DNA of 52,270 bases. Source: an uncultured bacterium. GTDB lineage: Bacteria > Patescibacteriota > Minisyncoccia > Phycocordibacterales > UBA1006. How positions within the stretch are numbered: position 1 is the first letter of the stretch; each line of letters begins with the position of its first letter. This document shows, piece after piece, positions 13,502 through 48,252 of the stretch. The translations under genes were made by a program, and so were the position numbers. The notes beneath the pieces were generated by a model, which worked only from the letters and a program-made list of their open reading frames with translations, searched no databases and was not told where the DNA came from. Location of the stretch: the NCBI GenBank assembly GCA_937868685.1, contig CALMMZ010000181.1:1-52270 (forward strand), written 5' to 3'.

Positions 13502-15148
13502 ATGTCGCTTTACGAAGTCAAATTCAAAGGAGAACAAAAAGGTCCATGGATCCCTTTTCGTGGAGAAGCTACTGAAGTTATTGAGTCGGGATTTCGCGTG
13601 TTAAACAAACCAGTTTTGTTATATGAACATGCTTATGTCGGAGAAAAGATTAATCCAAATGACAAAACTTTTCCAGATGAATTTATAGTACAATTATTTT
13701 ATAACTATGATCAACAGAGTTTTATTCGTAATAAGAATTTACTCCGCATGCTAGAGAAGATGTCACAAAATTTATCTGCCGAAGGATTTTTCAGCATGGC
13801 ATCGATTCCTTTTGCTTATCGATTTTATCCTAGTCCTCGTTCTTTTAACAAACAAACGAACACAAGTTATGCACTCATGAGATCACCCCCTGTTTGGAAG
13901 CATATTCTCGATACTTCAACTTCTCGTTTTCATTGGTTTATGTTTAATGCGTTGTCAGCTCTTTTTTATCTCCATAAATTGGGTATTGTACATCGTGCTA
14001 TTTCACCAGAAACTGTCTATTTTTCAAAGGATAATAATGACTATTCACCTTCTATTTTTATTCACGATTTTAGCTCGGCTTGCTGGTTAGAAGATCAAAC
14101 TGATCTCACTCAAATTGTAAGATGTCGTGAATCACCTCCAATGTATGATTATACTGATCCTGTTTTATTGCCAAAATCAAGACAATTATTGCAACAACAA
14201 CGAGATAAAAATAAAAGTAAGATCTCTTCCGAAGAAGAAAAGAAAATTCGTGATGACATGGATGGTCTCAAGAAGAAAATGGCCGAGTTAAATAAAGAAA
14301 TCAACGACGCAAAAGGAAATGATCGTACTCGTCTAGAAGGACAGCGAAAAGAACTAAGAAAAAGATTGGGCGAACTTGGGGGAAAATTACACGGTCGTCC
14401 AGGAGAAGGAGAACGAATGTCACAAGCAGTGTACGCTCCTTACACTGATAAATCTGATGTATTTTCAATGGGGATGTTATTTTATCAAATTGCAACTCAA
14501 GGCATCGGTTATACCAATGAAGCGCTCGATCCTTGGGATCCAACCAGAGAAAATACTATTAGTATGCCTCCAGATCAAATTGAAGTTTTTAACGCGCGTA
14601 AACAGCGTTTAACTCGTACAAATCTTTCGCCATTGTTGCGAGATATCATTTTGGGGATGATTCAACCTGAACATAAAGATCGCTTGGATGCTGGTATGGC
14701 TTTAAAGAAATTAATTTCTGCACACAATCCTGAGATGCAGATTCCCGATTTACCACCTTTTACCTCGGGAGCACCACAAAAAGAAATTCTACAATATCTT
14801 GGTTCGCGAGAATATCCCGAATTACAAGGAGCAAATATTAATACTCTGGCTAAAATGATGACGCAAAAATGGGCTGATGTTGACGCAAAAATTGACCATC
14901 AAGATCCAGCTAGTGAATTTTATGGATCATTCCGAGAAAGTAGGTTAAATCCCTCTCCTCCACCAGCTGAATTTTGGGCTTACTGCGTTGGTAAAGGTTT
15001 GTGTTACACAGCTGCGGTGGGAATTCCTCTTGTGGTTGGTGGTTTAAATCCAGTTGCTGCGGGTGTTGGATTGGCGACCGCCGGACTTGGAGCCGCCGGT
15101 GTACACAATCGATTGTTGCAAAAGATATCGGAGCGATGGAGACGGTAA
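13502..15148 (+). CDS. protein-kinase-like protein, probable pseudokinase, with a coiled-coil insert and a Gly-rich C-terminal hydrophobic segment
   Basis: 548 aa. LHKLGIVHRAISPETVYF (HRD replaced by HRA), IHDFSSA (DFG-like), SDVFSMGMLFYQI (subdomain IX-like). Charged insert KISSEEEKKIRDDMDGLKKKMAELNKEINDAKG. C-terminal GIPLVVGGLNPVAAGVGLATAGLGAAGV. Confidence 0.6.
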   Translation: MSLYEVKFKGEQKGPWIPFRGEATEVIESGFRVLNKPVLLYEHAYVGEKINPNDKTFPDEFIVQLFYNYDQQSFIRNKNLLRMLEKMSQNLSAEGFFSMASIPFAYRFYPSPRSFNKQTNTSYALMRSPPVWKHILDTSTSRFHWFMFNALSALFYLHKLGIVHRAISPETVYFSKDNNDYSPSIFIHDFSSACWLEDQTDLTQIVRCRESPPMYDYTDPVLLPKSRQLLQQQRDKNKSKISSEEEKKIRDDMDGLKKKMAELNKEINDAKGNDRTRLEGQRKELRKRLGELGGKLHGRPGEGERMSQAVYAPYTDKSDVFSMGMLFYQIATQGIGYTNEALDPWDPTRENTISMPPDQIEVFNARKQRLTRTNLSPLLRDIILGMIQPEHKDRLDAGMALKKLISAHNPEMQIPDLPPFTSGAPQKEILQYLGSREYPELQGANINTLAKMMTQKWADVDAKIDHQDPASEFYGSFRESRLNPSPPPAEFWAYCVGKGLCYTAAVGIPLVVGGLNPVAAGVGLATAGLGAAGVHNRLLQKISERWRR

Positions 15149-18054: not shown

Positions 18055-19482
18055 ATGTCAAAAACTCTTGAATGGTTATATTCACTTGAACCAAAAAGAC
18101 AAAAAAGACCTTCAACTCCAGAAAGAAAAATATTTTTATTGAAATATATTGCAACTACTGATCGTAATAATCTTTGTTCTTTCTTTCATGTGCTTGATGT
18201 CTTAGATATGTATGGTGTATGGAATCAGGAGAGCTTAAACATGGCACAATACCTTGTCGCTCAATACTATTTTATAGATAATGGTATGAAAGTTTCAGAA
18301 GAAAAGAGTGCTCACTTTTTTGTTAAATTAGCTTGTTCGTTGCACTTTCCTTCATTTTTTTACTATATTACCTTGCTGAGCAAGCAAAAAAAGTGTCATA
18401 AAGATGAAATTGATACATACTTTAATGTAGCACTATTGTTAATGTTATCAAATGATTATTACAAATATTCGAACTATCAGTTGATCCAAAGTGTTTTTCT
18501 TTTATTTGAAAAGAAAGAAGGGCCTGTATCATTAAAGAAGATTTTTTCAGATATTCTACTTCAGGCTGAAGGGCAGTTCCCAACTGAGATGTTAATTCTT
18601 TGTCGAAAAGTACAACAAAACTTTATGACATTGACTGAACAACCACTTGAAGAAGTTAAGTATATTGACTTAGTTTGTCCACAACGAATTTATTCTTTCG
18701 ATCAAAAAGATTTCCCTTTTTCACTCAACTCTTTACGACTTGGTGTTGGTGTATTAGGAACAGTTTATCAAGATAAAAACGGAAATGCTGTTAAGAGATG
18801 TAAATGGGAATACAAATCGGATGTTATGAGTGAAACATCGTTAGTTCGTTTTTTGGATCATCCCAATTTAATTCAACATTATTGTGTTTCTGTTCACAAC
18901 ATGGTACATCTTCGCTTTCATATTGAAATGCCCCGTTTTCCATTTAATTTAAATGATAAGTTTAATGAGATACGTGGTAATTCAAAAATTATTAAACCTA
19001 TTATTGCACAGGTACTAAAAGCTTTATTGTATCTTCACGAGCGCTCGATCCTCCACCGAGATGTTAAATTATCAAATATATTGTTTGATGAAAAATATCA
19101 CGCCGTTTTGTGTGATTTCTCTTTGGCTAAATTTTCTCCAATTCAAGAGAAGGCCGAAAGACTTGTACAAACTTATGAGTATCGAGCTCCTGAAGTATAC
19201 ACCAATAAAATCTCCACCGACAAGATGGATATTTGGTCGGTGGGAAGTGTATTAATTCATCTTTATTCGTCAGCCCGGTTTATACAACATTTAAAAGGAA
19301 TCAATTCAATTGGTGAAAGAGAATGGGGCATCATGATTCGAAAAGAAGATTGGTGGGAACCATTGGTTGAAATCCAAGATCTCTTGTTGAAAGATTTAAT
19401 TCGACAGATGGTCAAACAAGATCCCTCCCAACGTTATTCAGCACATGAGTGTTTACAACATGAATACTTTTACAAGAAATAA
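18055..19482 (+). CDS. Ser/Thr protein kinase with a ~220-aa N-terminal helical (cyclin-like?) domain
   Basis: 475 aa. GVGVLGTVY (G-loop), AVKRCK, LHERSILHRDVKLSNILF (HRD...N), LCDFSLAK, TYEYRAPEV, DIWSVGSVL. The N-terminal TPERKIFLLKYI motif is shared with ORFs 28919 and 30877. Confidence 0.8.
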   Translation: MSKTLEWLYSLEPKRQKRPSTPERKIFLLKYIATTDRNNLCSFFHVLDVLDMYGVWNQESLNMAQYLVAQYYFIDNGMKVSEEKSAHFFVKLACSLHFPSFFYYITLLSKQKKCHKDEIDTYFNVALLLMLSNDYYKYSNYQLIQSVFLLFEKKEGPVSLKKIFSDILLQAEGQFPTEMLILCRKVQQNFMTLTEQPLEEVKYIDLVCPQRIYSFDQKDFPFSLNSLRLGVGVLGTVYQDKNGNAVKRCKWEYKSDVMSETSLVRFLDHPNLIQHYCVSVHNMVHLRFHIEMPRFPFNLNDKFNEIRGNSKIIKPIIAQVLKALLYLHERSILHRDVKLSNILFDEKYHAVLCDFSLAKFSPIQEKAERLVQTYEYRAPEVYTNKISTDKMDIWSVGSVLIHLYSSARFIQHLKGINSIGEREWGIMIRKEDWWEPLVEIQDLLLKDLIRQMVKQDPSQRYSAHECLQHEYFYKK

Positions 19483-24379: not shown

Positions 24380-24387
24380 TCAATTTT
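24380..24387 (-). promoter_or_regulatory. AAAATTGA early-promoter-like motif
   Basis: TCAATTTT overlaps the kinesin stop codon. Lies upstream of minus-strand ATG 24337. Confidence 0.5.
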
Positions 24388-26872
24388 CATTTTGAATTGG
24401 AGTTACAATATTTCTTTCCACAACAGGTGTTTTCAAAATGCGTAATTGTGATTCCAAATCTTTAATCTTTTTCTCATAATCAAGTTGACGTCGTTTAAAG
24501 TCACTCGTTACTTCTTGTAGCTTATTGTTATTATTTCGTAAATGATCTTCTAGAGTCTTGATATGTCTTGAACGACCTTCCAATTGAGCTTTCAATTCTT
24601 CTTCTACAATAGCCAATTGAGAATATTTGTCATGTAAACGATGTAATTCTTCTTTTGTTTGAGTATCTTCTTCAGTTGTTTTCCATGTTTTTAACATATT
24701 TTCACGTAAGGTATTATTTTCTTCACACAAGGAAGCTACTTTTCCTCTCAACCCTCCATTCTCTTCCTCCAAAGTTAATGACCTTTGATTAGCAAATTTA
24801 ATGGCTTGATCGGCAGTCTCTTCTTTTTCTTTCAAACTAGACTGAGATTGTTCCAATTCTTTTTCTAAAGTATAAATTCGTTCTTGAATTATGGTTTGAT
24901 TTTGTCGCAAGTTCTCGATTTCCAGTATCTTTTGTCCTAAATCATCCTGGCAATGACGTAAATCATCTTGATATTTATTTGCTTCTGAACGAACTTTTTC
25001 GATTTCAGATTTAACCACGCTAATACCTTTTTGTAATTCAGTGACTAAAGCAGTCTTACTGTCAAGTTCTTCGGCCAATTTTTGGAATTGATCCAATGAT
25101 TCTTCATAATTGGCCGGTGTTAAAGTTGGTTGGACAATGAGATTATATTCTTTCTTGAAATCTTTGACATCAATCCCTTTTTTCTCACAAATGTCAATCA
25201 GACGATTTAAATCGCTGGTCAATGCAGAAATAATGATTTGTTGTGTTGCTAATTTTTCATTTGCCTCGTAAAGCAATCGTTTATATTCTTCAATATTCAT
25301 TTCTAAATTCACCACTGGTTTATTGAGAATAGTTTGTGTAATTGCCCCAAATCTTAGTGTCGACAAGGTTTCTTCATAATTAAATTTAGCTGGTGAACAG
25401 GTGATCACAAGATGAGTTTTACTATTCCCACCCAATGAATCAGTCAAGAGCCGTGTCAACTTTGAATCGCGATAAGGAATAAAAGGTTTCTTTTCAGCCA
25501 AACAGCGAATAACAATACCTAATGTTAATAGAGATTTATTGGTGGCATTGGCCTGCTTGAGTAATAAACCTTCGGCTTTGGTCTTGGCAATTTTTTCTGA
25601 ACCAGCCAAATCGACAAAGACAATACGAGATGTAATCTTTTTTCCTGTTTTCACATCAGTTTGTTGTACGTGCATCACTAAGATTGAATGACTCCGAGAA
25701 GAATGAGCATTTAAAGCGGTTGCGGCGACTGTTCGATTTAATTCACCTTTTCGCATAATTCGGACAGCATCTTCAAAACAATTGACATAAGTCTCGGTTA
25801 CTTCTTCAATCCACAATCCACGAAAGCGATCTTCACGAATTTTAAGATCATCTCTCAAGGGTGCTAATAAATCGCGAATTTTTTCTAAATAAATTTCCAC
25901 ATAAGACATACTTACAAGAAATTCATATCCTTTTTTGTTGCGAATTGCGGTAAAGAGATCTTTAATCAAACGGGGTACCACTCCCATTTCACTTTCTGTT
26001 TTCCATAATTCACCTTCTTGAGAAAGAAGATCGGCATTGTCGACTGCTGCCGCATAACCGGTCATGGTAGTTGTTTTACCTGAATTATGAGTCACAACTC
26101 CATCTGCAAGTAAAAACCTCGCAGGACATCCTTCAATCGGTTTTAATTGAAAACCAGCATATAATCCCATACTCAATTCCTCAAATTGAATGGGGTAGAC
26201 GATCAATTGTTTTTTATGTTGTCTGACACCAAGATATCCACGTGGATTCTTTAAGACTTCTTTCAAGGGGATATCCACAATTTTACCTTGTAATGATAAA
26301 GTTAGAACGTGATCAAGATTGACTGTATAAAAACTTTTACTTTCAGTGTCAATTACTTTGTACATATGAGAAATACCAGTATATAATTTGATTACTTCAC
26401 GAAGATTTCCTTGATCATCTAGTAATTTGTCTTCGATTTTGATATCTCTGGCTTGAATCGGTGAACCATCAGCCAGCATCACTAAAGTATCAGGAGATAA
26501 ACAAGCCGATTGACCGTAAGCGAAAATAGTGGCATTGTACCCTTGAAGAATCTCATGAATTAAGGGTTTTCCCACTGCAGTGTATACTTGTTCCTGAGTC
26601 GCTTTCTCATCAAAGACTTTATCATAGAAATATTTATTTTCTTTGGTTTCTTGTGGGAGATGTACAACATTTCCTTCCAAACGAATCATTCGAGTTGCAC
26701 CATTTTTCAATTCTGTTTCATTACAAGGTCGAAAACGACAAAAAACTTTGACATTTTTGTCTTCAACCGAGGTTTGCTTATCGGGGAGTTTTTCTTTCTC
26801 ACCTTTTGGTTCTCGTGGCGAAAGAACTTTATTTTTTCCCTTCATAAAAAAGAGATTTTCTTTTCTTAACAT
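24380..26872 (-). CDS. kinesin-like motor protein (N-terminal motor, C-terminal coiled coil) interrupted by a mini-intein
   Basis: 830 aa. VKVFCRFRP, IFAYGQSA[140-aa insert]SGKTTTM (P-loop), NAHSSRSHS (switch I), VDLAGSEK (switch II), YRDSKLTRLL. Residues from about 540 onward are heptad-rich (Glu/Leu/Lys/Gln). Confidence 0.9.
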   Translation of the reverse strand: MLRKENLFFMKGKNKVLSPREPKGEKEKLPDKQTSVEDKNVKVFCRFRPCNETELKNGATRMIRLEGNVVHLPQETKENKYFYDKVFDEKATQEQVYTAVGKPLIHEILQGYNATIFAYGQSACLSPDTLVMLADGSPIQARDIKIEDKLLDDQGNLREVIKLYTGISHMYKVIDTESKSFYTVNLDHVLTLSLQGKIVDIPLKEVLKNPRGYLGVRQHKKQLIVYPIQFEELSMGLYAGFQLKPIEGCPARFLLADGVVTHNSGKTTTMTGYAAAVDNADLLSQEGELWKTESEMGVVPRLIKDLFTAIRNKKGYEFLVSMSYVEIYLEKIRDLLAPLRDDLKIREDRFRGLWIEEVTETYVNCFEDAVRIMRKGELNRTVAATALNAHSSRSHSILVMHVQQTDVKTGKKITSRIVFVDLAGSEKIAKTKAEGLLLKQANATNKSLLTLGIVIRCLAEKKPFIPYRDSKLTRLLTDSLGGNSKTHLVITCSPAKFNYEETLSTLRFGAITQTILNKPVVNLEMNIEEYKRLLYEANEKLATQQIIISALTSDLNRLIDICEKKGIDVKDFKKEYNLIVQPTLTPANYEESLDQFQKLAEELDSKTALVTELQKGISVVKSEIEKVRSEANKYQDDLRHCQDDLGQKILEIENLRQNQTIIQERIYTLEKELEQSQSSLKEKEETADQAIKFANQRSLTLEEENGGLRGKVASLCEENNTLRENMLKTWKTTEEDTQTKEELHRLHDKYSQLAIVEEELKAQLEGRSRHIKTLEDHLRNNNNKLQEVTSDFKRRQLDYEKKIKDLESQLRILKTPVVERNIVTPIQNEN
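26084..26503 (-). mobile_element. mini-intein (140 aa, no homing-endonuclease domain) inside the kinesin P-loop
   Basis: Residues 124-263 of the kinesin ORF. Starts CLSPDTLVMLADGSPI (block-A-like, Cys1). Has NLDH (block-B-like). Ends FLLADGVVTHN, followed by Ser (+1). Removing it restores GQSASGKTTTM. Confidence 0.8.
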
Positions 26873-26895: not shown

Positions 26896-27306
26896 ATGGA
26901 ATTTCTCGAACGAAATCGAAATTTGGCCGATCAATCACGCTTTGCTGAGGCAATGCGAAAAATTCAACAAAAAAGTCTGGAAGAAAGACGGGCAGAATGT
27001 AAAAGAATTTTCGTCAAAAAGCCTTCTAATATTCCAGTAATCGTGATTCCCGCCAAAGGAATTCAACTCGACAAGTTGAAATACATTTGTGACAATGATA
27101 TGACGATAGAAAAATTAAACTATGTGATTGTCAGGCGAATTATTTCTTCTACACCAGTGCCTGAAAGAGCCTACTTTTTTATTACCGAGGATAAACAAAT
27201 TCCACCAACTGATATGTTAATTCGAGACCTCTATCGTAAACAAAAAAATGAAGATTTTACTCTCCATCTTTACTTAATTGGTGAAGATACTTTTGGTTGT
27301 GATTAA
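26896..27306 (+). CDS. Atg8/LC3/GABARAP-family ubiquitin-like protein
   Basis: 136 aa. Collinear with Atg8/GABARAP: SLEERRAECKRIFVKKPSNIPVIV (compare [23 protein letters not shown]), LDKLKYICDNDMTIEKLNYVIVRRI (compare [25 protein letters not shown]), AYFFITEDKQIPPTDMLIRDLYRKQKNEDFTLHLYLIGEDTFG-CD (compare [42 protein letters not shown]). Confidence 0.85.
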   Translation: MEFLERNRNLADQSRFAEAMRKIQQKSLEERRAECKRIFVKKPSNIPVIVIPAKGIQLDKLKYICDNDMTIEKLNYVIVRRIISSTPVPERAYFFITEDKQIPPTDMLIRDLYRKQKNEDFTLHLYLIGEDTFGCD

Positions 27307-28918: not shown

Positions 28919-30319
28919 ATGGACCGAGATGATGCTTTTTTGTCAAAAGCTTTACAGCGAAACATAAAACGGAGATATTTGTTTCCTCCCAAAGTGCCAC
29001 CTGTTTTTACATCTCGTGAAGAACGAATAACATATATTTTAGAAATTTATGGTTATATGACATTGCGAAAAAACGATTTTCCCTACGCCGCTGCAATTCA
29101 ATCTATCTGCTACAGCGATACTTTACCTTCAATTGACCGTGAGCTTCTCTTTGGATGTATTGGAATGGGCATTTGTTTGGAAGAAGCTTCGTTGGATGAT
29201 TGTTATTTATATGAAATTTTCTTGGCATCAGGCCATTCCTTCGACGAAGAGGGTAATGAAAAATTTCGTTTGACCCTTAAAGCTATTGATCAATTTCCCA
29301 ACATCTATCTTGAAACACCAGATCGAATGTTATCCCTGTTTTGGAAGGATTATCTTTCACTTGAAATGTATCAAAAAATTTTACTTCATTTATGCCATCA
29401 TCCCTTTGAGGGGAAGAAAACTGCACTTCCCTTCTTACAAGAACGGGAGATTCAACCTTTTCTTTCCTTTGAAAAAATTGTAGAAAAAAAGATACCACGT
29501 TGGAAATTTCTCCCTCATCAAGAAGACGACAGTCTTTATCAAGGTGCTCATTCACAAACTAGAAGATGGGTCTCAGCAGAAGATCCCGAAACTTACATTG
29601 TCAAAACTTATGGTAATCAACTTGAAATGGAGGCGGGCATTCGAGAACTTTATTCTTTAACTATTTTTGATCATCCAAATATTGTCAAGTGTCATGGTTG
29701 GTCTATTTCCGAGGATTTTACTCAAATTCAATTTTTCTTGGAAGATGGTGGAGAAGAAATTGATTGTCGTTACACCACTTTAAAATGGTTGAAGAAATAT
29801 ACACCTCAGATTTTAAGAGCTCTCCGTCATATTCACACTCGAGGATTTGCTTACCGTGATTTGAAAACTCCCAATCTTGTCTTTCGTCGTGGTAAAATTA
29901 CATTAATCGATTTTGGCATGGTTCGTCGAACAAATTGTGTTGGTGGAAGTCCTTACATGATGTCTTTTGCAATTGGACCCGCGGAAATCTTTGCAGGAAG
30001 TTGCATTTATTGGGGAGCAGTTGATATCTGGTCATTGGGTATGTTACTTTATGTTTTAACACAAAAGAAGTATCCACTTGGAGTAAAAGGAATGGCCTCT
30101 TATCGGGGAAAATATTTATATACTAAAGCTTTTCTTGAACAATTAACACCAGAAGAAGAACTTGAATTTAAGCAGATGAAGAAAAATAATACATCTTTAA
30201 TAATTGACGGAAAAGTGTCTGATATTCAAAATCAAAAATTAAGAGCTTTGATTAAACGATGTTTTTCCGCCAGAGCACCTTCGGCAGGTGAATTATTGCA
30301 AGATCCTTTCTTTGAATAA
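28919..30319 (+). CDS. cyclin-box-like N-terminal domain fused to a Ser/Thr protein kinase
   Basis: 466 aa. N-terminal SREERITYILEIYGYM ... FRLTLKAIDQFPNIYLETPDRMLSLFW (cyclin-box-like L-x-F-x-L-x-x-P-T-P-x-x-F-L pattern). Kinase motifs: IHTRGFAYRDLKTPNLVF, LIDFGMVRR, VDIWSLGMLLYVL. Confidence 0.75.
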   Translation: MDRDDAFLSKALQRNIKRRYLFPPKVPPVFTSREERITYILEIYGYMTLRKNDFPYAAAIQSICYSDTLPSIDRELLFGCIGMGICLEEASLDDCYLYEIFLASGHSFDEEGNEKFRLTLKAIDQFPNIYLETPDRMLSLFWKDYLSLEMYQKILLHLCHHPFEGKKTALPFLQEREIQPFLSFEKIVEKKIPRWKFLPHQEDDSLYQGAHSQTRRWVSAEDPETYIVKTYGNQLEMEAGIRELYSLTIFDHPNIVKCHGWSISEDFTQIQFFLEDGGEEIDCRYTTLKWLKKYTPQILRALRHIHTRGFAYRDLKTPNLVFRRGKITLIDFGMVRRTNCVGGSPYMMSFAIGPAEIFAGSCIYWGAVDIWSLGMLLYVLTQKKYPLGVKGMASYRGKYLYTKAFLEQLTPEEELEFKQMKKNNTSLIIDGKVSDIQNQKLRALIKRCFSARAPSAGELLQDPFFE

Positions 30320-30338: not shown

Positions 30339-30830
30339 TTAAGCATTTCGAAGTTGATTTAGAAGAGATACAGTAATGGGAGGATGATTTTTCTTTTCGG
30401 CAAAGGCTAAAATATCCTTTCTTCTTTGTTCAAATTGTTCAAGTTTATAAGAAGTATATTTTGCATCGAGAAAGTTATCCAGAAAGTCTGCCACTTTAAT
30501 CATAAAACCATAAACTGACAAAGATTCCAATTTTATTTTCATATATTCAATCTTATTCAGTTGGTTTATTTTTGATTGATCATTTGTTAACTCCTTGACT
30601 AATAAGGAAATTTGTTGATTAAAAGTTTCTTCTAATTCTTCTGGAGTGGTTTTCGTATCTTCCAAAGTATCATGAAGTAAAGCTGCCGCTAAAATGTCTT
30701 CATTTTGCATTCCATGTTGACGAAGTAAACTAGCAACTGAACAACAGTGGACAATATAAGGCAAATGTGTAACTTTACGCTGTTGATCTTTATGTTTGTG
30801 GAGAATAAATGTAAGAGCTTTGGTGAACAT
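30339..30830 (-). CDS. MESH1/SpoT-type HD-domain hydrolase ((p)ppGpp hydrolase-like)
   Basis: ATG 30830. ALTFILHKHKDQQRKVTHLPYIVHCCSVASLL ... ILAAALLHDTLEDTKTTPEELEETF ... LVKELTND is collinear with MESH1 AADFAARKHRQQRRK..PYINHPIGVARIL...AALLHDTVEDTDTT...LVEEVTDD. H-D-x-x-E-D signature present. Confidence 0.8.
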   Translation of the reverse strand: MFTKALTFILHKHKDQQRKVTHLPYIVHCCSVASLLRQHGMQNEDILAAALLHDTLEDTKTTPEELEETFNQQISLLVKELTNDQSKINQLNKIEYMKIKLESLSVYGFMIKVADFLDNFLDAKYTSYKLEQFEQRRKDILAFAEKKNHPPITVSLLNQLRNA

Positions 30831-30867
30831 AAAAATGATTTTACTTTTTGGAAGAAAACTGTTAGAA

Positions 30868-30875
30868 TCAATTTT
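30868..30875 (-). promoter_or_regulatory. AAAATTGA early-promoter-like motif
   Basis: TCAATTTT in the 46-bp divergent spacer. Lies upstream of minus-strand ATG 30830. Confidence 0.5.
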
Positions 30876-30876
30876 T

Positions 30877-32241
30877 ATGGAGTCACACTTCTTTTCTTTC
30901 AAAAAAGAAACTCTGAGTCCTCCAGAAAGGACCGAGGGTATTGAGTATATTCTCAAGGTCTGCGATGAATACAAAATGAATGTTTATACATCTTTGATGG
31001 CTATTGAATTTTTTGACCTTCTTTCATTCAAAATGAAAGAAAAAGATACTGTTCCCTTTGTTTGTGTTTACTTAGCTTTTCTCTTTCGTGGCTCTGAAAA
31101 TCAAAACTTTTTAAATGGTCCAGAGTGTATCAAATATGAAGAAGAATTGTCTTCTTTGTGTTTTGAAGTAGTAGCTTCATTCAAAGGACCTATTTTTAGA
31201 CCTACTGCAATGAGATGTTTATCACTCTTCTTACAAAGAAATTGTACTTCCTTTGAAGAGAATATGATCCTGCTAGGTTATTTGAAACAAAAAGTTACTT
31301 CTTGTCAAGAGATCTGTGAACTCGTCTCTCCCCTCTTACCCGAAGAAAAGAGAGTATCATTTTCCACTTTTGTAGAAAATGAAATAAAACAAACTTCCTC
31401 GAAACCCTTTTACCGGAAATACAGTCCAGGAAAAAGAATTTGTTGTCTAGGTGAAGGGGCTCATGCGAAAGTTTATTGTTGTTTGGAAGATGAAACAACT
31501 AAAATATACACTGCTGTCAAAGTCTATAACATTGGTGAGGGAGAAGAATTGAACGCACTTCGAGAAATTGCGTTGTTAAGTTCGGTATCTCATCCTTCAA
31601 TTGTGCCATTTTTTGGTTGGAGTTTTGAACCGAAAGATCAAAAAGTTTACCTTTATTTGGGACAGGGATATAGGGTGCCTCCTCATGATCTCTCTGAAAA
31701 ATGGATTCAACAATATGGTTATGAAATATTGCAAGCGATTGATTATCTTCATCAAAGAGGATTTGTCCATCGCGATTTAAAACGAACGAATGTAGTTTAT
31801 TCAGATGACAAAAAGCATGTCTGGTTGATTGATTTTGGTATTTCTCGTGAAGAACAAGCTCATGGAATGAGTGCAAAAATGGCCCCTCAAATTTTAATGC
31901 CTCCTGAAATGATTGAAAATTTAGATTATGATGCCTCGATTGATATTTGGCAACTCGGGCTCTTTTTTGCCGGAAGTATTACCAAAGACGAATCTTTTCC
32001 CTCGGCATTGACTGATACAGATTTAACTTATCAATTGTTTTATTTTAAAAACAATCTTTTGATTCACGAAAATTCTTACCGACCTACATATCGACTCTCC
32101 AATATTGTCAATCCTACTTTGAGAGACTTTATTGCTCGTTGTCTTACCGATTATTACCTTCAAAGACCAAAAAGTCATGAATTACTTTCACATCCTTTCT
32201 TTAAAAGTTCGATTCCAGAAAGATCTCTCAAAGACATTTAA
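30877..32241 (+). CDS. cyclin-box-like N-terminal domain fused to a Ser/Thr protein kinase
   Basis: ATG 30877 avoids most of the overlap with the divergent HD gene. N-terminal PPERTEGIEYILKVCDEYKMNVYTSLMAIEFFDLLSF ... EEELSSLCFEVVASFKGPIFRPTAMRCLSLFL (cyclin-box-like). Kinase motifs: LGEGAHAKVY, AVKVY, LHQRGFVHRDLKRTNVVY, LIDFGISRE, IDIWQLGLFF. Confidence 0.8.
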   Translation: MESHFFSFKKETLSPPERTEGIEYILKVCDEYKMNVYTSLMAIEFFDLLSFKMKEKDTVPFVCVYLAFLFRGSENQNFLNGPECIKYEEELSSLCFEVVASFKGPIFRPTAMRCLSLFLQRNCTSFEENMILLGYLKQKVTSCQEICELVSPLLPEEKRVSFSTFVENEIKQTSSKPFYRKYSPGKRICCLGEGAHAKVYCCLEDETTKIYTAVKVYNIGEGEELNALREIALLSSVSHPSIVPFFGWSFEPKDQKVYLYLGQGYRVPPHDLSEKWIQQYGYEILQAIDYLHQRGFVHRDLKRTNVVYSDDKKHVWLIDFGISREEQAHGMSAKMAPQILMPPEMIENLDYDASIDIWQLGLFFAGSITKDESFPSALTDTDLTYQLFYFKNNLLIHENSYRPTYRLSNIVNPTLRDFIARCLTDYYLQRPKSHELLSHPFFKSSIPERSLKDI

Positions 32242-46533: not shown

Positions 46534-48252
46534 ATGGATTTTGAAACTGCCTTTCAAATATCTCAACATGTCTTTGACCTGGGTGTGTATTACTCTTTAG
46601 AAGAATTGAAAAATGTTCGGTTAATCTTCTCCGAAGAAGTACTTATCCGAAAGTTTGCTCCCAAGAGAGAATTTTTTCTCCAATCTCGAAAATGTGAAGT
46701 CTGTGGTAAAAGGCCAACGTATCATTTTAAATCTGGTGCGACTCAAGGAAAAGGAGTTCGTTGTAAAGCTCATTGTGAAGAAGGCATGATAAATGTGAAC
46801 GATCCAACATGTCTCCATTCCGGATGTAAAACTCGGCCGTCTTACAATTTTCCCGGACAAAAAAAGAGTTATTGTACTCTTCATAAATTGGAAGGTATGA
46901 TAGATGTGGCAAATCCGAAATGTCTCCATCCCGGGTGTGAAACTCATCCAAATTACAATTATCCCGGGCAAAAAGCAAGTTATTGTAATGTTCATAAATT
47001 GGAAGGTATGATAAATGTAGTACATCCGAGATGTCTCCATCTCGGGTGTGAAACTCAACCAAATTACAATTTTCCCGGACAAAAAGCAAGTTATTGCAGT
47101 TTTCATAAATTGGAAGGCATGATAGATGTAAAACATCCAAGATGTCTCCATCCTGGCTGTGAAACTCGACCGACTTACAATTATCCTGGGCAAAAACCAA
47201 GTTATTGTAGTCTTCATAAATTGGAAGGTATGATAAATGTGGTAAGTCCGACTTGTCTCCATCCCGGGTGTGAAACTCAACCAACTTACAATTATCCTGG
47301 GCAAAAACCAAGTTATTGTAGTCTTCATAAATTGGAAGGTATGATAAATGTGGTAAGTCCGACTTGTCTCCATCCCGGGTGTGAAACTCTACCGTCTTAC
47401 AATTTTCCCGGACAAAAAAAGAGTTATTGTAGTCTTCATAAATTGGAAGGTATGGTAGATGTAGTAAATCCAAGATGTGTTTGTGGTACAAGAGCTAATT
47501 TTAATTTTCCTGGTAATCCTCCATCTTGGTGTGCTTCTCATAAATCTCCGGGGATGATTTCTCATCCCACCAAGAAATGTAAGATTGCGAAGTGTCAAAA
47601 GTTGGCTCTTTTTGGAATGACTTCAGCGCTTCATTGCGAAAATCATCGTTTTCCTGAAGAAATTCTTTTGATGGAACGAAATTGTGTGAAATGTCAACGA
47701 TTAGATATCTTAAATCAAGACGGATTGTGCCTTTCTTTTTGTTTAGCTGAAGTTCAATATTACAATAAATATCGAATTCAAAAACCTAAGAAACAAGCAC
47801 GTGTGGTTGAAATGTTAACACGTACAATAGGTGCACCACTTTTTGTGGATACCATCATTGATAAAGTTTGTAACAAATTTCGCCCTGATTGTGTCTATGA
47901 ATTTGATGATTATGTTTTAATTGTCGAAATTGATGAATTTCAACATAAACGATATTCAGATAGTTGTGAATATCGTCGAATGGAAGAAGTTTTTCGTGCC
48001 TTTCTCAAGAAAACACTTTTTATTCGCTATAATCCAGATTCATTTCTTGATTTTGCACAAAAACCAGGGAAATGTGATGTTCGCAAACGAGAGAAAAAAT
48101 TAGTTGAAACAGTACAAAAGTATTATCGGGGTTTTCCTTTTCCCTTTGCTTCAGTCTATCTTTTTTACGATGGATATCATCCAGAAGGAGATAATTTAAT
48201 TTTGTTTCCCGTACCGGAAGGAATTCAAGACTATCGAGGAAAGGTATATTAA
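46534..48252 (+). CDS. EsV-1-7-type cysteine-repeat protein fused to a C-terminal PD-(D/E)XK-like endonuclease domain
   Basis: 572 aa. About nine repeats of C-x4-C-x15-C-x2-H, e.g. CLHPGCETRPTYNYPGQKPSYCSLHKLEGMINV. C-terminal RPDCVYEFDDYVLIVEIDEFQHKRY...LFIRYNPD (D...E-x-D-E-x-Q-H). Confidence 0.75.
   Translation: MDFETAFQISQHVFDLGVYYSLEELKNVRLIFSEEVLIRKFAPKREFFLQSRKCEVCGKRPTYHFKSGATQGKGVRCKAHCEEGMINVNDPTCLHSGCKTRPSYNFPGQKKSYCTLHKLEGMIDVANPKCLHPGCETHPNYNYPGQKASYCNVHKLEGMINVVHPRCLHLGCETQPNYNFPGQKASYCSFHKLEGMIDVKHPRCLHPGCETRPTYNYPGQKPSYCSLHKLEGMINVVSPTCLHPGCETQPTYNYPGQKPSYCSLHKLEGMINVVSPTCLHPGCETLPSYNFPGQKKSYCSLHKLEGMVDVVNPRCVCGTRANFNFPGNPPSWCASHKSPGMISHPTKKCKIAKCQKLALFGMTSALHCENHRFPEEILLMERNCVKCQRLDILNQDGLCLSFCLAEVQYYNKYRIQKPKKQARVVEMLTRTIGAPLFVDTIIDKVCNKFRPDCVYEFDDYVLIVEIDEFQHKRYSDSCEYRRMEEVFRAFLKKTLFIRYNPDSFLDFAQKPGKCDVRKREKKLVETVQKYYRGFPFPFASVYLFYDGYHPEGDNLILFPVPEGIQDYRGKVY
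46693..47660 (+). repeat. 111-bp (37-codon) coding repeat array (EsV-1-7-type Cys motif)
   Basis: About nine units. The copy starting at 47173 and the copy starting at 47284 are identical over roughly 105 bp. Confidence 0.85.

What the first reader, a model, noticed from the sequence alone, without database searches (positions are those of the whole stretch)
26084..26503. In-frame mini-intein splitting the P-loop of a viral kinesin motor
The 830-aa kinesin ORF reads NATIFAYGQSA | CLSPDTLVMLADGSPIQARDIKIEDKLL ... CPARFLLADGVVTHN | SGKTTTMTGY.

- Removing residues 124-263 restores GQSASGKTTTM, the kinesin Walker-A P-loop (consensus GQTxSGKT).
- The insert begins with Cys in a CLSxDTxV block-A-like motif, contains an N-L-D-H block-B-like motif, and ends His-Asn followed by Ser (+1). 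This is canonical class-1 intein junction chemistry.
- At 140 aa it has no room for a homing endonuclease.
- Switch I (NAHSSRSHS) and switch II (DLAGSE) are intact, so the motor should work after splicing.

Giant-virus inteins are known from replication and nucleotide-metabolism enzymes. I am not aware of one in a cytoskeletal motor. PolB and RNR2 in this same window are intein-free.
Basis: partly seen in the sequence, partly recalled or inferred. Interest (0 to 1): 0.9.

Follow-up and report, generated by a model that had tools for sequence, protein, structure and literature searches.

The report
Mini-intein in viral kinesin P-loop
A giant-virus kinesin motor gene is interrupted, exactly inside its ATP-binding loop, by a small self-splicing protein element (a mini-intein) that almost certainly cuts itself out to give a working motor; the element is real and common in environmental giant viruses, but it is a new host for a well-known kind of element, not a new mechanism.

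Summary
ORF 24380-26872 (-) encodes an 830-aa kinesin. Residues 124-263 (window 26084-26503) are a 140-aa insert, GQSA|CLSPDT…VVTHN|SGKTTTM.

- **It is an intein.** It passes Pfam Hom_end_hint. A profile of its relatives hits PI-SceI (E 1.7e-22) and Prp8 inteins. AlphaFold gives a Hint fold (pLDDT 96; TM 0.83 to the Cryptococcus Prp8 intein).
- **Removal restores the motor.** In-silico excision gives one contiguous kinesin domain.
- **It is widespread.** 27 of the 120 best kinesin homologues carry an insert at the same site. Sizes run from 137 to 419 aa, and the long ones carry LAGLIDADG homing endonucleases. At least 55 more 50%-identity clusters have it, including giant-virus MAG contigs. 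Closely related kinesins are empty.
- **The chemistry is conserved.** Cys1, NxxH, terminal His-Asn and the +1 nucleophile (Ser; Cys in one) are kept throughout the 27. A second subfamily among the further clusters ends Arg-Asn.
- **It is constrained.** Intein dN/dS is about 0.05.

My reading is a class-1 mini-intein that lost its endonuclease and is fixed in this lineage. Splicing itself is untested.

The claim that no cytoskeletal motor hosts an intein is outdated: Anaeramoeba kinesin and dynein inteins were reported in 2023. P-loops are a known intein hot spot. I found no report of one in a viral kinesin.

The parts
24380..26872 (-). Kinesin precursor ORF (830 aa plus stop): N-extein, mini-intein, C-extein. 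The motor is followed by a long coiled-coil tail.
   Evidence: Pfam Kinesin PF00225 E 1.9e-95 in two stretches, plus Hom_end_hint. The identical protein is found on 17 metagenome contigs.
26504..26872 (-). N-extein, residues 1-123. It holds the N-terminal part of the motor and ends in the first half of the Walker-A loop, GQSA (26504-26515).
   Evidence: A close relative (P0122) starts at Met10 (26843-26845), so the true start may be there.
26084..26503 (-). Class-1 mini-intein, 140 aa (protein residues 124-263), with no homing endonuclease domain.
   Evidence: Pfam Hom_end_hint 46.3 bits, cut-off 32.1. AF2 pLDDT 96.2, all-beta. Every listed Foldseek PDB match is an intein or other Hint domain; Prp8 intein TM 0.83. 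dN/dS 0.05.
26465..26503 (-). Block A, CLSPDTLVMLADG. Cys1 (26501-26503) is the first nucleophile.
   Evidence: C1 is invariant in 20/20 aligned kinesin inteins; L2, P4 and T6 are at least 90% conserved.
26300..26323 (-). Block B, VNLDHVLT. Intein Asn62 and His65 form the NxxH motif.
   Evidence: N62 and H65 are invariant.
26144..26167 (-). Block F, GLYAGFQL.
   Evidence: G113, Y115 and G117 are conserved. It aligns with DDYYGITL of PI-SceI.
26084..26119 (-). Block G, RFLLADGVVTHN. It ends in His139-Asn140 (26084-26089), the site of succinimide formation.
   Evidence: R129, H139 and N140 are invariant. It aligns with HQFLLANQVVVHN of PI-SceI.
26063..26083 (-). Start of the C-extein, SGKTTTM: the second half of the Walker-A loop. 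The +1 Ser (26081-26083) is the second nucleophile.
   Evidence: The +1 residue is Ser in 26 of 27 occupied homologues and Cys in one. Empty alleles read GQ[TS]xSGKT.
24380..26083 (-). C-extein, residues 264-830 plus stop. It holds the rest of the motor, with switch I at 25685-25711 and switch II at 25595-25612, then the neck and coiled-coil tail.

Best explanation
The insert is a genuine class-1 mini-intein of the PI-SceI/Prp8-like (Pfam Hom_end_hint) family. It sits between the fourth residue of the kinesin Walker-A loop and the conserved Ser of SGKT.

**Mechanism (inferred from the known chemistry of class-1 inteins).** The gene is translated as an 830-aa precursor whose ATP-binding loop is split, so the motor is inactive. 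The Hint domain folds and then acts in four steps:
1. Cys1 makes an N-S acyl shift.
2. The +1 Ser attacks the thioester, giving a branched ester intermediate.
3. Asn140, helped by His139, cyclises and releases the 16-kDa intein.
4. An O-N shift restores a normal peptide bond.

The product is a 690-aa kinesin with an intact GQSASGKTTTM loop.

**Evolution.** The element descends from a full-length intein carrying a LAGLIDADG homing endonuclease. Such full-length inteins still occupy the same site in related giant-virus kinesins and move horizontally between them. In the window's lineage the endonuclease and its DNA-recognition insert were deleted. The remnant is now inherited vertically. It is kept under purifying selection because any loss of splicing would destroy the motor's P-loop.

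**Shown versus inferred.** Shown are family membership, fold, site, conservation, allele distribution and selection. Inferred is that splicing actually occurs.
For: **Sequence.**
- Pfam Hom_end_hint is above its gathering score.
- A profile of 20 kinesin inteins hits PI-SceI at E 1.7e-22 and Prp8 inteins at about 1e-18.

**Structure.**
- AF2 gives pLDDT 96.2 and pTM 0.88.
- Every listed Foldseek PDB match is an intein or another Hint domain (BIL2, hedgehog); Prp8 intein scores TM 0.83 at E 8e-11.

**Host restoration.** In-silico excision gives one full-length Kinesin match, 1-327/327.

**Alleles.**
- 27 of the 120 best homologues are occupied at the identical site, with inserts of 137-419 aa. 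The long ones have Hom_end and LAGLIDADG_3 domains. The rest are empty.
- Empty, endonuclease-bearing and mini alleles are interleaved on the kinesin tree.
- At least 55 further 50%-identity clusters carry it.
- It is present on giant-virus MAG contigs of IMG/VR.

**Catalytic residues.** C1, N62, H65, H139 and N140 are invariant.

**Selection.** Intein dN/dS is 0.053 and 0.058, against 0.012-0.019 for the motor and 0.025-0.046 for the tail.

**Mobility.** Intein cores are often 63-76% identical where their host motors are only 39-47% identical (Spearman 0.14). The window lineage shows the reverse: intein 42-44%, motor 64-69%.
Against: - No experiment or proteomic data show splicing.
- The NCBIfam intein_Nterm model scores below its cut-off (18.4 against 24.5), and no intein_Cterm model hits.
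- In the window clade the block-F His found in many relatives (DGNHRF) is replaced (EGCPARF), next to a 4-residue insertion. However, that position is also G, E, S or Q in other members and is not conserved in the family.
- Purifying selection would also be expected for a domain that is kept for another reason.
Confidence: 0.9

Rival explanations
1. Conditional-splicing switch. The intein is retained because it is useful, not only because it is hard to lose. Splicing, and therefore ATP binding by the motor, would be gated by the intracellular state during infection (redox, metal ions, temperature). This is as described for P-loop inteins of RadA and DnaB. It adds to the best explanation and does not replace it.
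For: - The insert splits the one loop without which the motor cannot bind ATP.
- It persists under purifying selection long after endonuclease loss.
- Published precedents for environmentally controlled P-loop and ATPase-domain inteins appeared in the search (PMC4513877, PMC7360933, PMC5790916).
- Novikova et al. argue for selective retention of P-loop inteins.
Against: - Nothing in the sequence shows regulation.
- Many close relatives work with empty alleles.
- Purifying selection is fully explained by the need to keep splicing.
- The extra Cys126 is confined to the window's own sub-clade.
Confidence: 0.15
2. Splicing-dead relic. The Hint domain no longer splices. It stays as a permanent insertion, so the kinesin is either non-functional or works with an interrupted P-loop.
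For: - There is no direct evidence of splicing.
- The block-F His is lost in this clade.
- The NCBIfam intein models fall below threshold.
Against: - All catalytic residues are invariant.
- Motor dN/dS of 0.012-0.019 shows the kinesin is functional. A 140-aa domain inside GQxxSGKT is incompatible with nucleotide binding (established kinesin structure).
- The intein itself is at dN/dS 0.05.
Confidence: 0.05
3. A Hint domain that is not an intein, such as a bacterial-intein-like or hedgehog-type autoprocessing domain. It would cleave the protein without ligating the two halves.
For: Foldseek also lists BIL2 and hedgehog Hint domains, at weaker scores (ranks 13 and 40).
Against: - The best sequence and structure matches are true inteins.
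- The C-terminal His-Asn and a +1 Ser are present and conserved.
- The site lies in the middle of an indispensable motif.
- Homologues at the same site carry intein-type LAGLIDADG endonucleases.
Confidence: 0.02
4. Assembly or annotation artefact: a chimeric contig, or an unrecognised intron.
For: None found.
Against: - The identical 830-aa protein is called on 17 independent contigs from several samples.
- The insert is in frame with no stops.
- Its composition matches the flanks.
- Related lineages carry it at the same codon.
Confidence: 0.01

Closest known systems
Prp8 inteins of Cryptococcus neoformans and C. gattii (PDB 6MX6, 6MWY)
   Same: They are the best structural match (TM 0.83/0.82, E about 1e-10) and also match the family profile by sequence (E about 1e-18). 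Both are naturally small eukaryote-type inteins of the Hom_end_hint family with Cys1 and terminal His-Asn. Related Prp8-site inteins (P0213, P0303) read …HN|SGFEES, with Ser at +1.
   Different: The host is the spliceosomal protein Prp8, not an NTPase. The insertion-site sequence is different. Sequence identity is only about 22-25%.
PI-SceI, the VMA1 intein of Saccharomyces cerevisiae
   Same: It is the best sequence relative with a solved structure (E 1.7e-22 to the family profile). Blocks A, F and G align residue for residue (CFAKGTNVLMADGS… / …HQFLLANQVVVHN). The LAGLIDADG motifs of the long kinesin inteins (LAGLIDSDGY) match those of PI-SceI.
   Different: PI-SceI is 454 aa with an active endonuclease and a +1 Cys. 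Its site is IIYVG|CGERGNEM, 23 residues downstream of the Walker-A loop, not in it. My initial recollection that it lies in the P-loop was wrong.
Kinesin and dynein inteins of Anaeramoeba (Gallot-Lavallée et al. 2023, PMC10710043)
   Same: These were the first reported inteins in cytoskeletal motors. That paper also links Anaeramoeba inteins to Nucleocytoviricota inteins and describes intein spread between P-loops of unrelated proteins.
   Different: The host is a cellular eukaryote. The insertion site of its kinesin intein is not given in the text I could read, and the supplements are not held. The P-loop group described there (cluster 1) is class 3, whereas this intein is class 1. Kinesin is not among the hosts that paper lists as shared with giant viruses.
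P-loop inteins of DnaB (site b), MCM (site a) and RFC (site a) (Novikova et al. 2016, PMC4760082)
   Same: The insertion lies inside the Walker-A motif of an NTPase, so splicing is needed for nucleotide binding. This is a recognised hot spot.
   Different: Those hosts are replication proteins of bacteria and archaea.
Related Hom_end_hint inteins in other, largely unnamed metagenomic NTPases
   Same: The intein blocks are nearly identical (CLxxxT…GDLLMGDDSTPR…YYGFxLDGNHRFLLGDFTVTHN). Nearly all sit in Walker-A loops of A32-like ATPases, RFC, AAA, SF2 helicases, thymidine kinase, DnaB and GTPases. About 15 of 80 use the same register as kinesin, G|intein|[ST]GK[ST].
   Different: The host genes differ. 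Most use the neighbouring register, GK|intein|[ST].

Membership tests
Intein (class 1), Hint superfamily | Hint (horseshoe all-beta) fold | tested here: met
   AF2 pLDDT 96.2, pTM 0.88. Foldseek gives 70 PDB matches at E<=1e-3. Every listed match is an intein or another Hint domain, and the top two are Prp8 inteins at TM 0.83 and 0.82.
Intein (class 1), Hint superfamily | In-frame insertion whose removal restores a contiguous, conserved host protein | tested here: met
   Excision gives GQSASGKTTTM and a single Pfam Kinesin match, 1-327/327 at 342.6 bits. Empty orthologues read GQ[TS]xSGKT.
Intein (class 1), Hint superfamily | N-terminal nucleophile (Cys or Ser at position 1, block A) | tested here: met
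   Cys1 is present and invariant in 20/20 aligned inteins and in all 27 occupied homologues.
Intein (class 1), Hint superfamily | Block B (T/N)xxH | tested here: met
   N62-L-D-H65 is present. N62 and H65 are invariant.
Intein (class 1), Hint superfamily | C-terminal Asn, usually preceded by His (block G) | tested here: met
   H139 and N140 are invariant in alignment A1. A sister subfamily in other kinesins ends Arg-Asn.
Intein (class 1), Hint superfamily | +1 nucleophile (Ser, Thr or Cys) on the C-extein | tested here: met
   The +1 Ser is the conserved Ser of SGKT. It is Ser in 26 of 27 occupied alleles and Cys in one.
Intein (class 1), Hint superfamily | Curated sequence models | tested here: inconclusive
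   Pfam PF05203 Hom_end_hint passes (46.3 against 32.1). NCBIfam TIGR01445 intein_Nterm is below its cut-off (18.4 against 24.5), and no C-terminal model hits.
Intein (class 1), Hint superfamily | Autocatalytic protein splicing that yields ligated exteins | not testable with these tools
   This needs expression plus western blot or mass spectrometry. Indirect support comes from dN/dS of 0.05 on the intein and 0.012-0.019 on the motor.
Mobile intein with homing cycle | Empty, endonuclease-bearing and degenerate or mini alleles at one site among orthologues | tested here: met
   Intein/extein incongruence is shown.
Mobile intein with homing cycle | Homing endonuclease domain within this copy | tested here: not met
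   The copy is 140 aa with no Hom_end or LAGLIDADG hit. It is a mini-intein and is not autonomously mobile.
Class 3 intein | No N-terminal nucleophile; WCT triplet with a block-F Cys | tested here: not met
   Cys1 is present. Block F position 4 is Gly. Cys126 is confined to the window's sub-clade.
VMA1-a (PI-SceI) allele | Homologous insertion site | tested here: not met
   The yeast site is IIYVG|CGERGNEM, 23 residues after the Walker-A loop.
Kinesin motor (host protein) | Walker A GQTxSGKT, switch I SSRSH, switch II DLAGSE, full motor-domain model | tested here: met
   The nearest named relatives are kinesin-1 heavy chains and proteins labelled 'kinesin family protein 5'.

The most novel reading that the evidence does not exclude
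The kinesin site may have been colonised by non-allelic homing. The donor would be a promiscuous giant-virus intein lineage that recognises Walker-A coding DNA and hops between unrelated NTPase genes. It has left inteins in both registers of the loop, and sometimes two in one loop. In kinesin the endonuclease-free remnant may have been co-opted as a post-translational timer, keeping the viral motor ATP-blind until splicing conditions are met during infection.
Probability: 0.12. Interest if true: 0.7.

Novelty: new member of a known kind. Interest (0 to 1): 0.5.

Why it matters
- **A new host class for viral inteins.** It adds a cytoskeletal motor to the proteins known to host inteins in viruses. 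The only kinesin inteins I found in the literature are in the eukaryote Anaeramoeba.
- **A complete homing cycle at one site.** Empty, endonuclease-bearing, decaying and mini alleles are all sampled, together with clear horizontal movement between divergent kinesins. This makes a good natural system for studying intein dynamics in giant viruses.
- **A practical point for annotation.** Viral kinesin genes of about 800-1300 aa should be analysed after intein removal. Phylogenies and domain calls on the precursors are distorted.
- **Possible tool use.** Compact 137-147-aa Cys1/Ser+1 inteins that work inside a Walker-A loop could serve as engineered switches for P-loop NTPases.

It does not change what is known about how inteins work.

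Tried and rejected
1. Searching the 5.8-billion-protein index with the 140-aa insert alone found nothing at E<=1e-3. The word prefilter is too coarse for a short divergent query. The full ORF and the intein alignment worked.
2. I expected the yeast VMA1 intein to lie in the Walker-A loop, which would have made this a structurally homologous site. Checking against the PDB precursor 9COP and the mature subunit showed it lies 23 residues downstream, so I dropped the idea.
3. The NCBIfam intein models were below threshold, so membership rests on Pfam, the PDB profile search and the fold.
4. The listing of cluster members gave no organism names or accessions, so the virus could not be named. I infer a member of Nucleocytoviricota from three things: PolB, the RNR small subunit and EsV-1-7 repeats in the window; GVMAG contigs carrying relatives; and the literature on viral kinesins.
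5. The supplements of the Anaeramoeba paper are not held. I could not check whether its kinesin intein uses the same site.
6. The IMG/VR pattern scan returned only 8 loci, too few for an occupancy estimate.
7. An AF2 model of the precursor motor (pLDDT 79, junction residues below 50) added little beyond showing that both domains fold.
8. Class 3, BIL/hedgehog and artefact readings were considered and rejected (see rival explanations and membership test).
Full report
**1. The observation**

The window holds an 830-codon ORF on the minus strand, 24380-26872. Translation and indexing show that residues 124-263 correspond exactly to 26084-26503. They read CLSPDTLVMLADG…RFLLADGVVTHN and are preceded by …NATIFAYGQSA and followed by SGKTTTMTGY….

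Pfam finds the kinesin motor domain in two separated stretches (E 1.9e-95). Between them it finds Hom_end_hint (PF05203) at 40.6 bits. On the insert alone this model scores 46.3 bits, against a gathering cut-off of 32.1.

Removing the 140 residues in silico gives GQSASGKTTTM and a single uninterrupted kinesin match covering profile positions 1-327 of 327, at a higher score of 342.6 bits. Switch I (NAHSSRSHS, residues 388-396) and switch II (DLAGSE, residues 421-426) are present.

The base composition of the insert does not differ from its flanks.

**2. What the insert is**

*Sequence.* The insert alone weakly matches PI-SceI and Prp8 inteins in the PDB (E 8e-4 to 7e-3). A profile built from 20 kinesin inserts (alignment A1) matches PI-SceI at E 1.7e-22 and three Prp8 inteins at about 1e-18. 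The alignment covers blocks A, F and G, and in the long versions both LAGLIDADG motifs.

*Structure.* AlphaFold2 on A1 gives an all-beta model with mean pLDDT 96.2 and pTM 0.88. Foldseek against the PDB returns 70 matches at E<=1e-3. Every listed match is an intein or another Hint domain. The list is led by the Cryptococcus Prp8 inteins (TM 0.83/0.82), followed by PI-SceI domain I, gp41-1, Npu DnaE and others.

The NCBIfam intein_Nterm model is below its cut-off (18.4 against 24.5). This is the only negative result.

**3. Relatives**

A search with the whole ORF, followed by a junction scan, shows that 27 of the 120 best kinesin homologues carry an insert at exactly the same place: GQxx|C…HN|(S/C)GK(T/S). 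Lengths run from 137 to 419 aa.

- The long inserts have Pfam Hom_end and LAGLIDADG_3 domains, for example P0005. They carry motifs such as PYLIGLWLGDGS and LAGLIDSDGY.
- Some long copies have lost the acidic residues (P0007, P0013), and others are of intermediate size. This is the expected decay series.
- The remaining homologues are empty (GQ[TS]xSGKT). They include the closest relatives of occupied genes and all named eukaryotic kinesin-1 sequences.

On a neighbour-joining tree of the motor domains, empty, endonuclease-bearing and mini alleles are interleaved.

An exhaustive HMMER search of 1.84 billion cluster representatives, using the junction region as query, adds at least 55 further 50%-identity clusters of kinesins occupied at this site. 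These include a second subfamily that starts CFAKGT and ends Arg-Asn.

Giant-virus MAG contigs in IMG/VR carry both subfamilies (L010/L011 and L017), and four others are empty.

**4. Evidence for function**

In alignment A1, the residues C1, N62, H65, H139 and N140 are invariant. R129 and several structural residues are invariant as well. The +1 residue is Ser in 26 of 27 occupied alleles and Cys in one.

I made codon alignments with three relatives whose DNA I fetched. Nei-Gojobori estimates are:

| Region | Window vs P0122 | P0002 vs P0004 |
|---|---|---|
| Intein | 0.053 | 0.058 |
| Motor | 0.019 | 0.012 |
| Coiled-coil tail | 0.046 | 0.025 |

The insert is therefore translated and constrained about as strongly as the tail, and the motor is clearly a working gene. 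A working kinesin cannot tolerate 140 residues inside its phosphate-binding loop (established knowledge of kinesin structure). Splicing is thus the only simple way to reconcile these numbers. This is inference, not demonstration.

**5. History**

Across 300 pairs, identity of the intein core barely tracks identity of the host motor (Spearman 0.14). Many pairs have inteins 63-76% identical in motors only 39-47% identical, which indicates horizontal homing between divergent kinesin genes.

The window's lineage shows the opposite pattern. Its intein is 42-44% identical to those of its nearer relatives, while the motors are 64-69% identical. Within its own clade the intein is 60-90% identical against 81-97% for the extein.

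That is what vertical descent of a faster-evolving element looks like. The element cannot move by itself.

Compared with full-length copies, the mini form has lost two segments: one between block B and the conserved xxDIPxxEYL motif, and the endonuclease domain itself. Several mini forms lie in different parts of the tree (window clade, P0006, P0030, P0032, P0033, P0045), which suggests repeated losses.

**6. Mechanism**

I commit to standard class-1 splicing:
1. Cys1 makes an N-S shift.
2. The +1 Ser carries out transesterification.
3. Asn140 cyclises, assisted by His139.
4. An O-N shift completes the peptide bond.

The result is a 690-aa kinesin and a free 16-kDa intein.

It is not a class-3 intein, because Cys1 is present and there is no WCT triplet. 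It is not a BIL or hedgehog domain, because the terminal His-Asn and the +1 nucleophile are conserved and intein-type endonucleases sit in its homologues.

Whether splicing is constitutive or conditional cannot be told from sequence. Conditional splicing is documented for other ATPase-domain inteins (papers listed). It remains a minority possibility here.

**7. Comparison with what is known**

Walker-A loops are a recognised intein hot spot, for example DnaB-b, MCM-a and RFC-a (PMC4760082).

Inteins in cytoskeletal motors were first reported in 2023, in a kinesin and two dyneins of Anaeramoeba. That paper treats 'Cytoskeleton' as a new host category. It lists the hosts shared with Nucleocytoviricota as Lon, DNA polymerases and RNA polymerase subunits, without kinesin (PMC10710043).

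The study that catalogued about 200 giant-virus kinesins does not mention inteins (PMC8407384). Four full-text searches combining intein and kinesin terms found no description of a viral kinesin intein.

A viral kinesin intein appears to be unreported in the literature I could search, although such sequences are plentiful in public data.

The yeast VMA1 intein is the closest solved relative by sequence, but it is not at an equivalent site. It lies 23 residues downstream of the Walker-A loop.

**8. The wider family**

A search with the intein profile alone, with no extein residues in the query, retrieved related inteins in many unrelated proteins. Mapping 80 junctions shows that nearly all lie in Walker-A loops.

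- Most use the register GxxGxGK|intein|[ST]. Hosts include A32-like ATPases, RFC, AAA, SF2 helicases, thymidine kinase, DnaB and GTPases.
- About 15 use GxxG|intein|[ST]GK[ST], which is the kinesin register. Hosts include VirB11-like ATPases, terminase and A32-like ATPases.

This fits, but does not prove, movement of one intein lineage between P-loops of non-homologous genes.

**9. Context and verdict**

The window also encodes an uninterrupted family-B DNA polymerase, an RNR small subunit, several protein kinases and an EsV-1-7 repeat protein. It contains no other Hint domain. The identical kinesin is assembled on 17 contigs from several samples.

The finding is real and correctly interpreted. 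It is a new host, and a well-populated new allele, for a known kind of element. It is not a new mechanism. I score interest at about 0.5.

Noticed in passing
window 26896-27306 (+); also L008 4438-4941 and L009 436-870: An ATG8 (autophagy ubiquitin-like) homologue lies head to head with the kinesin (Pfam ATG8, E 2.5e-16). The ATG8-kinesin pair, followed by the methyltransferase and hydrolase genes, is conserved in related contigs. This hints at a functional module for vesicle or membrane trafficking on microtubules.
   Followed up: partly
proteins P0256, P0287, P0300, P0308, P0317, P0319, P0330, P0340, P0358, P0311 (not in the window): Two related inteins sit in one Walker-A loop, three residues apart, occupying both registers at once. 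An example is P0256: VVLGKPG|intein|TGK|intein|TTLITSLL. I checked the sequence by eye for P0256 and P0300.
   Followed up: partly
proteins P0286, P0347, P0354 (not in the window): Two inteins abut directly with no extein residue between them (…VHN|CFAKDT… or …VVHN|CLGKDT…), inside a Walker-A loop. Cys1 of the second must serve as the +1 nucleophile of the first.
   Followed up: partly
proteins P0257-P0284 and others; locus L017: A second subfamily of kinesin P-loop inteins starts CFAKGT and ends Arg-Asn instead of His-Asn (…VLRN|SGKS). It is present on a giant-virus MAG contig. The same ending occurs in A32-like ATPase inteins (P0161, P0186, P0209, P0212).
   Followed up: no
window 26843-26872 (-): The annotated start (Met1) may be too far upstream. 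The close relative P0122 begins at the equivalent of Met10 (MKGKNKVLSP…), and P0002 to P0004 also start there.
   Followed up: no
window 46534-48252 (+): A 572-aa protein is made of repeated EsV-1-7 cysteine-rich motifs (Pfam PF19114, 347.6 bits, 7 stretches). Two 250-aa ORFs overlap it on the opposite strand and are probably spurious.
   Followed up: no
window 13502-15148, 18055-19482, 28919-30319, 30796-32241 (+): The window has at least four protein-kinase-domain genes. This looks like a local expansion of Ser/Thr kinases around the kinesin locus. The same kinases flank the kinesin in L008.
   Followed up: no
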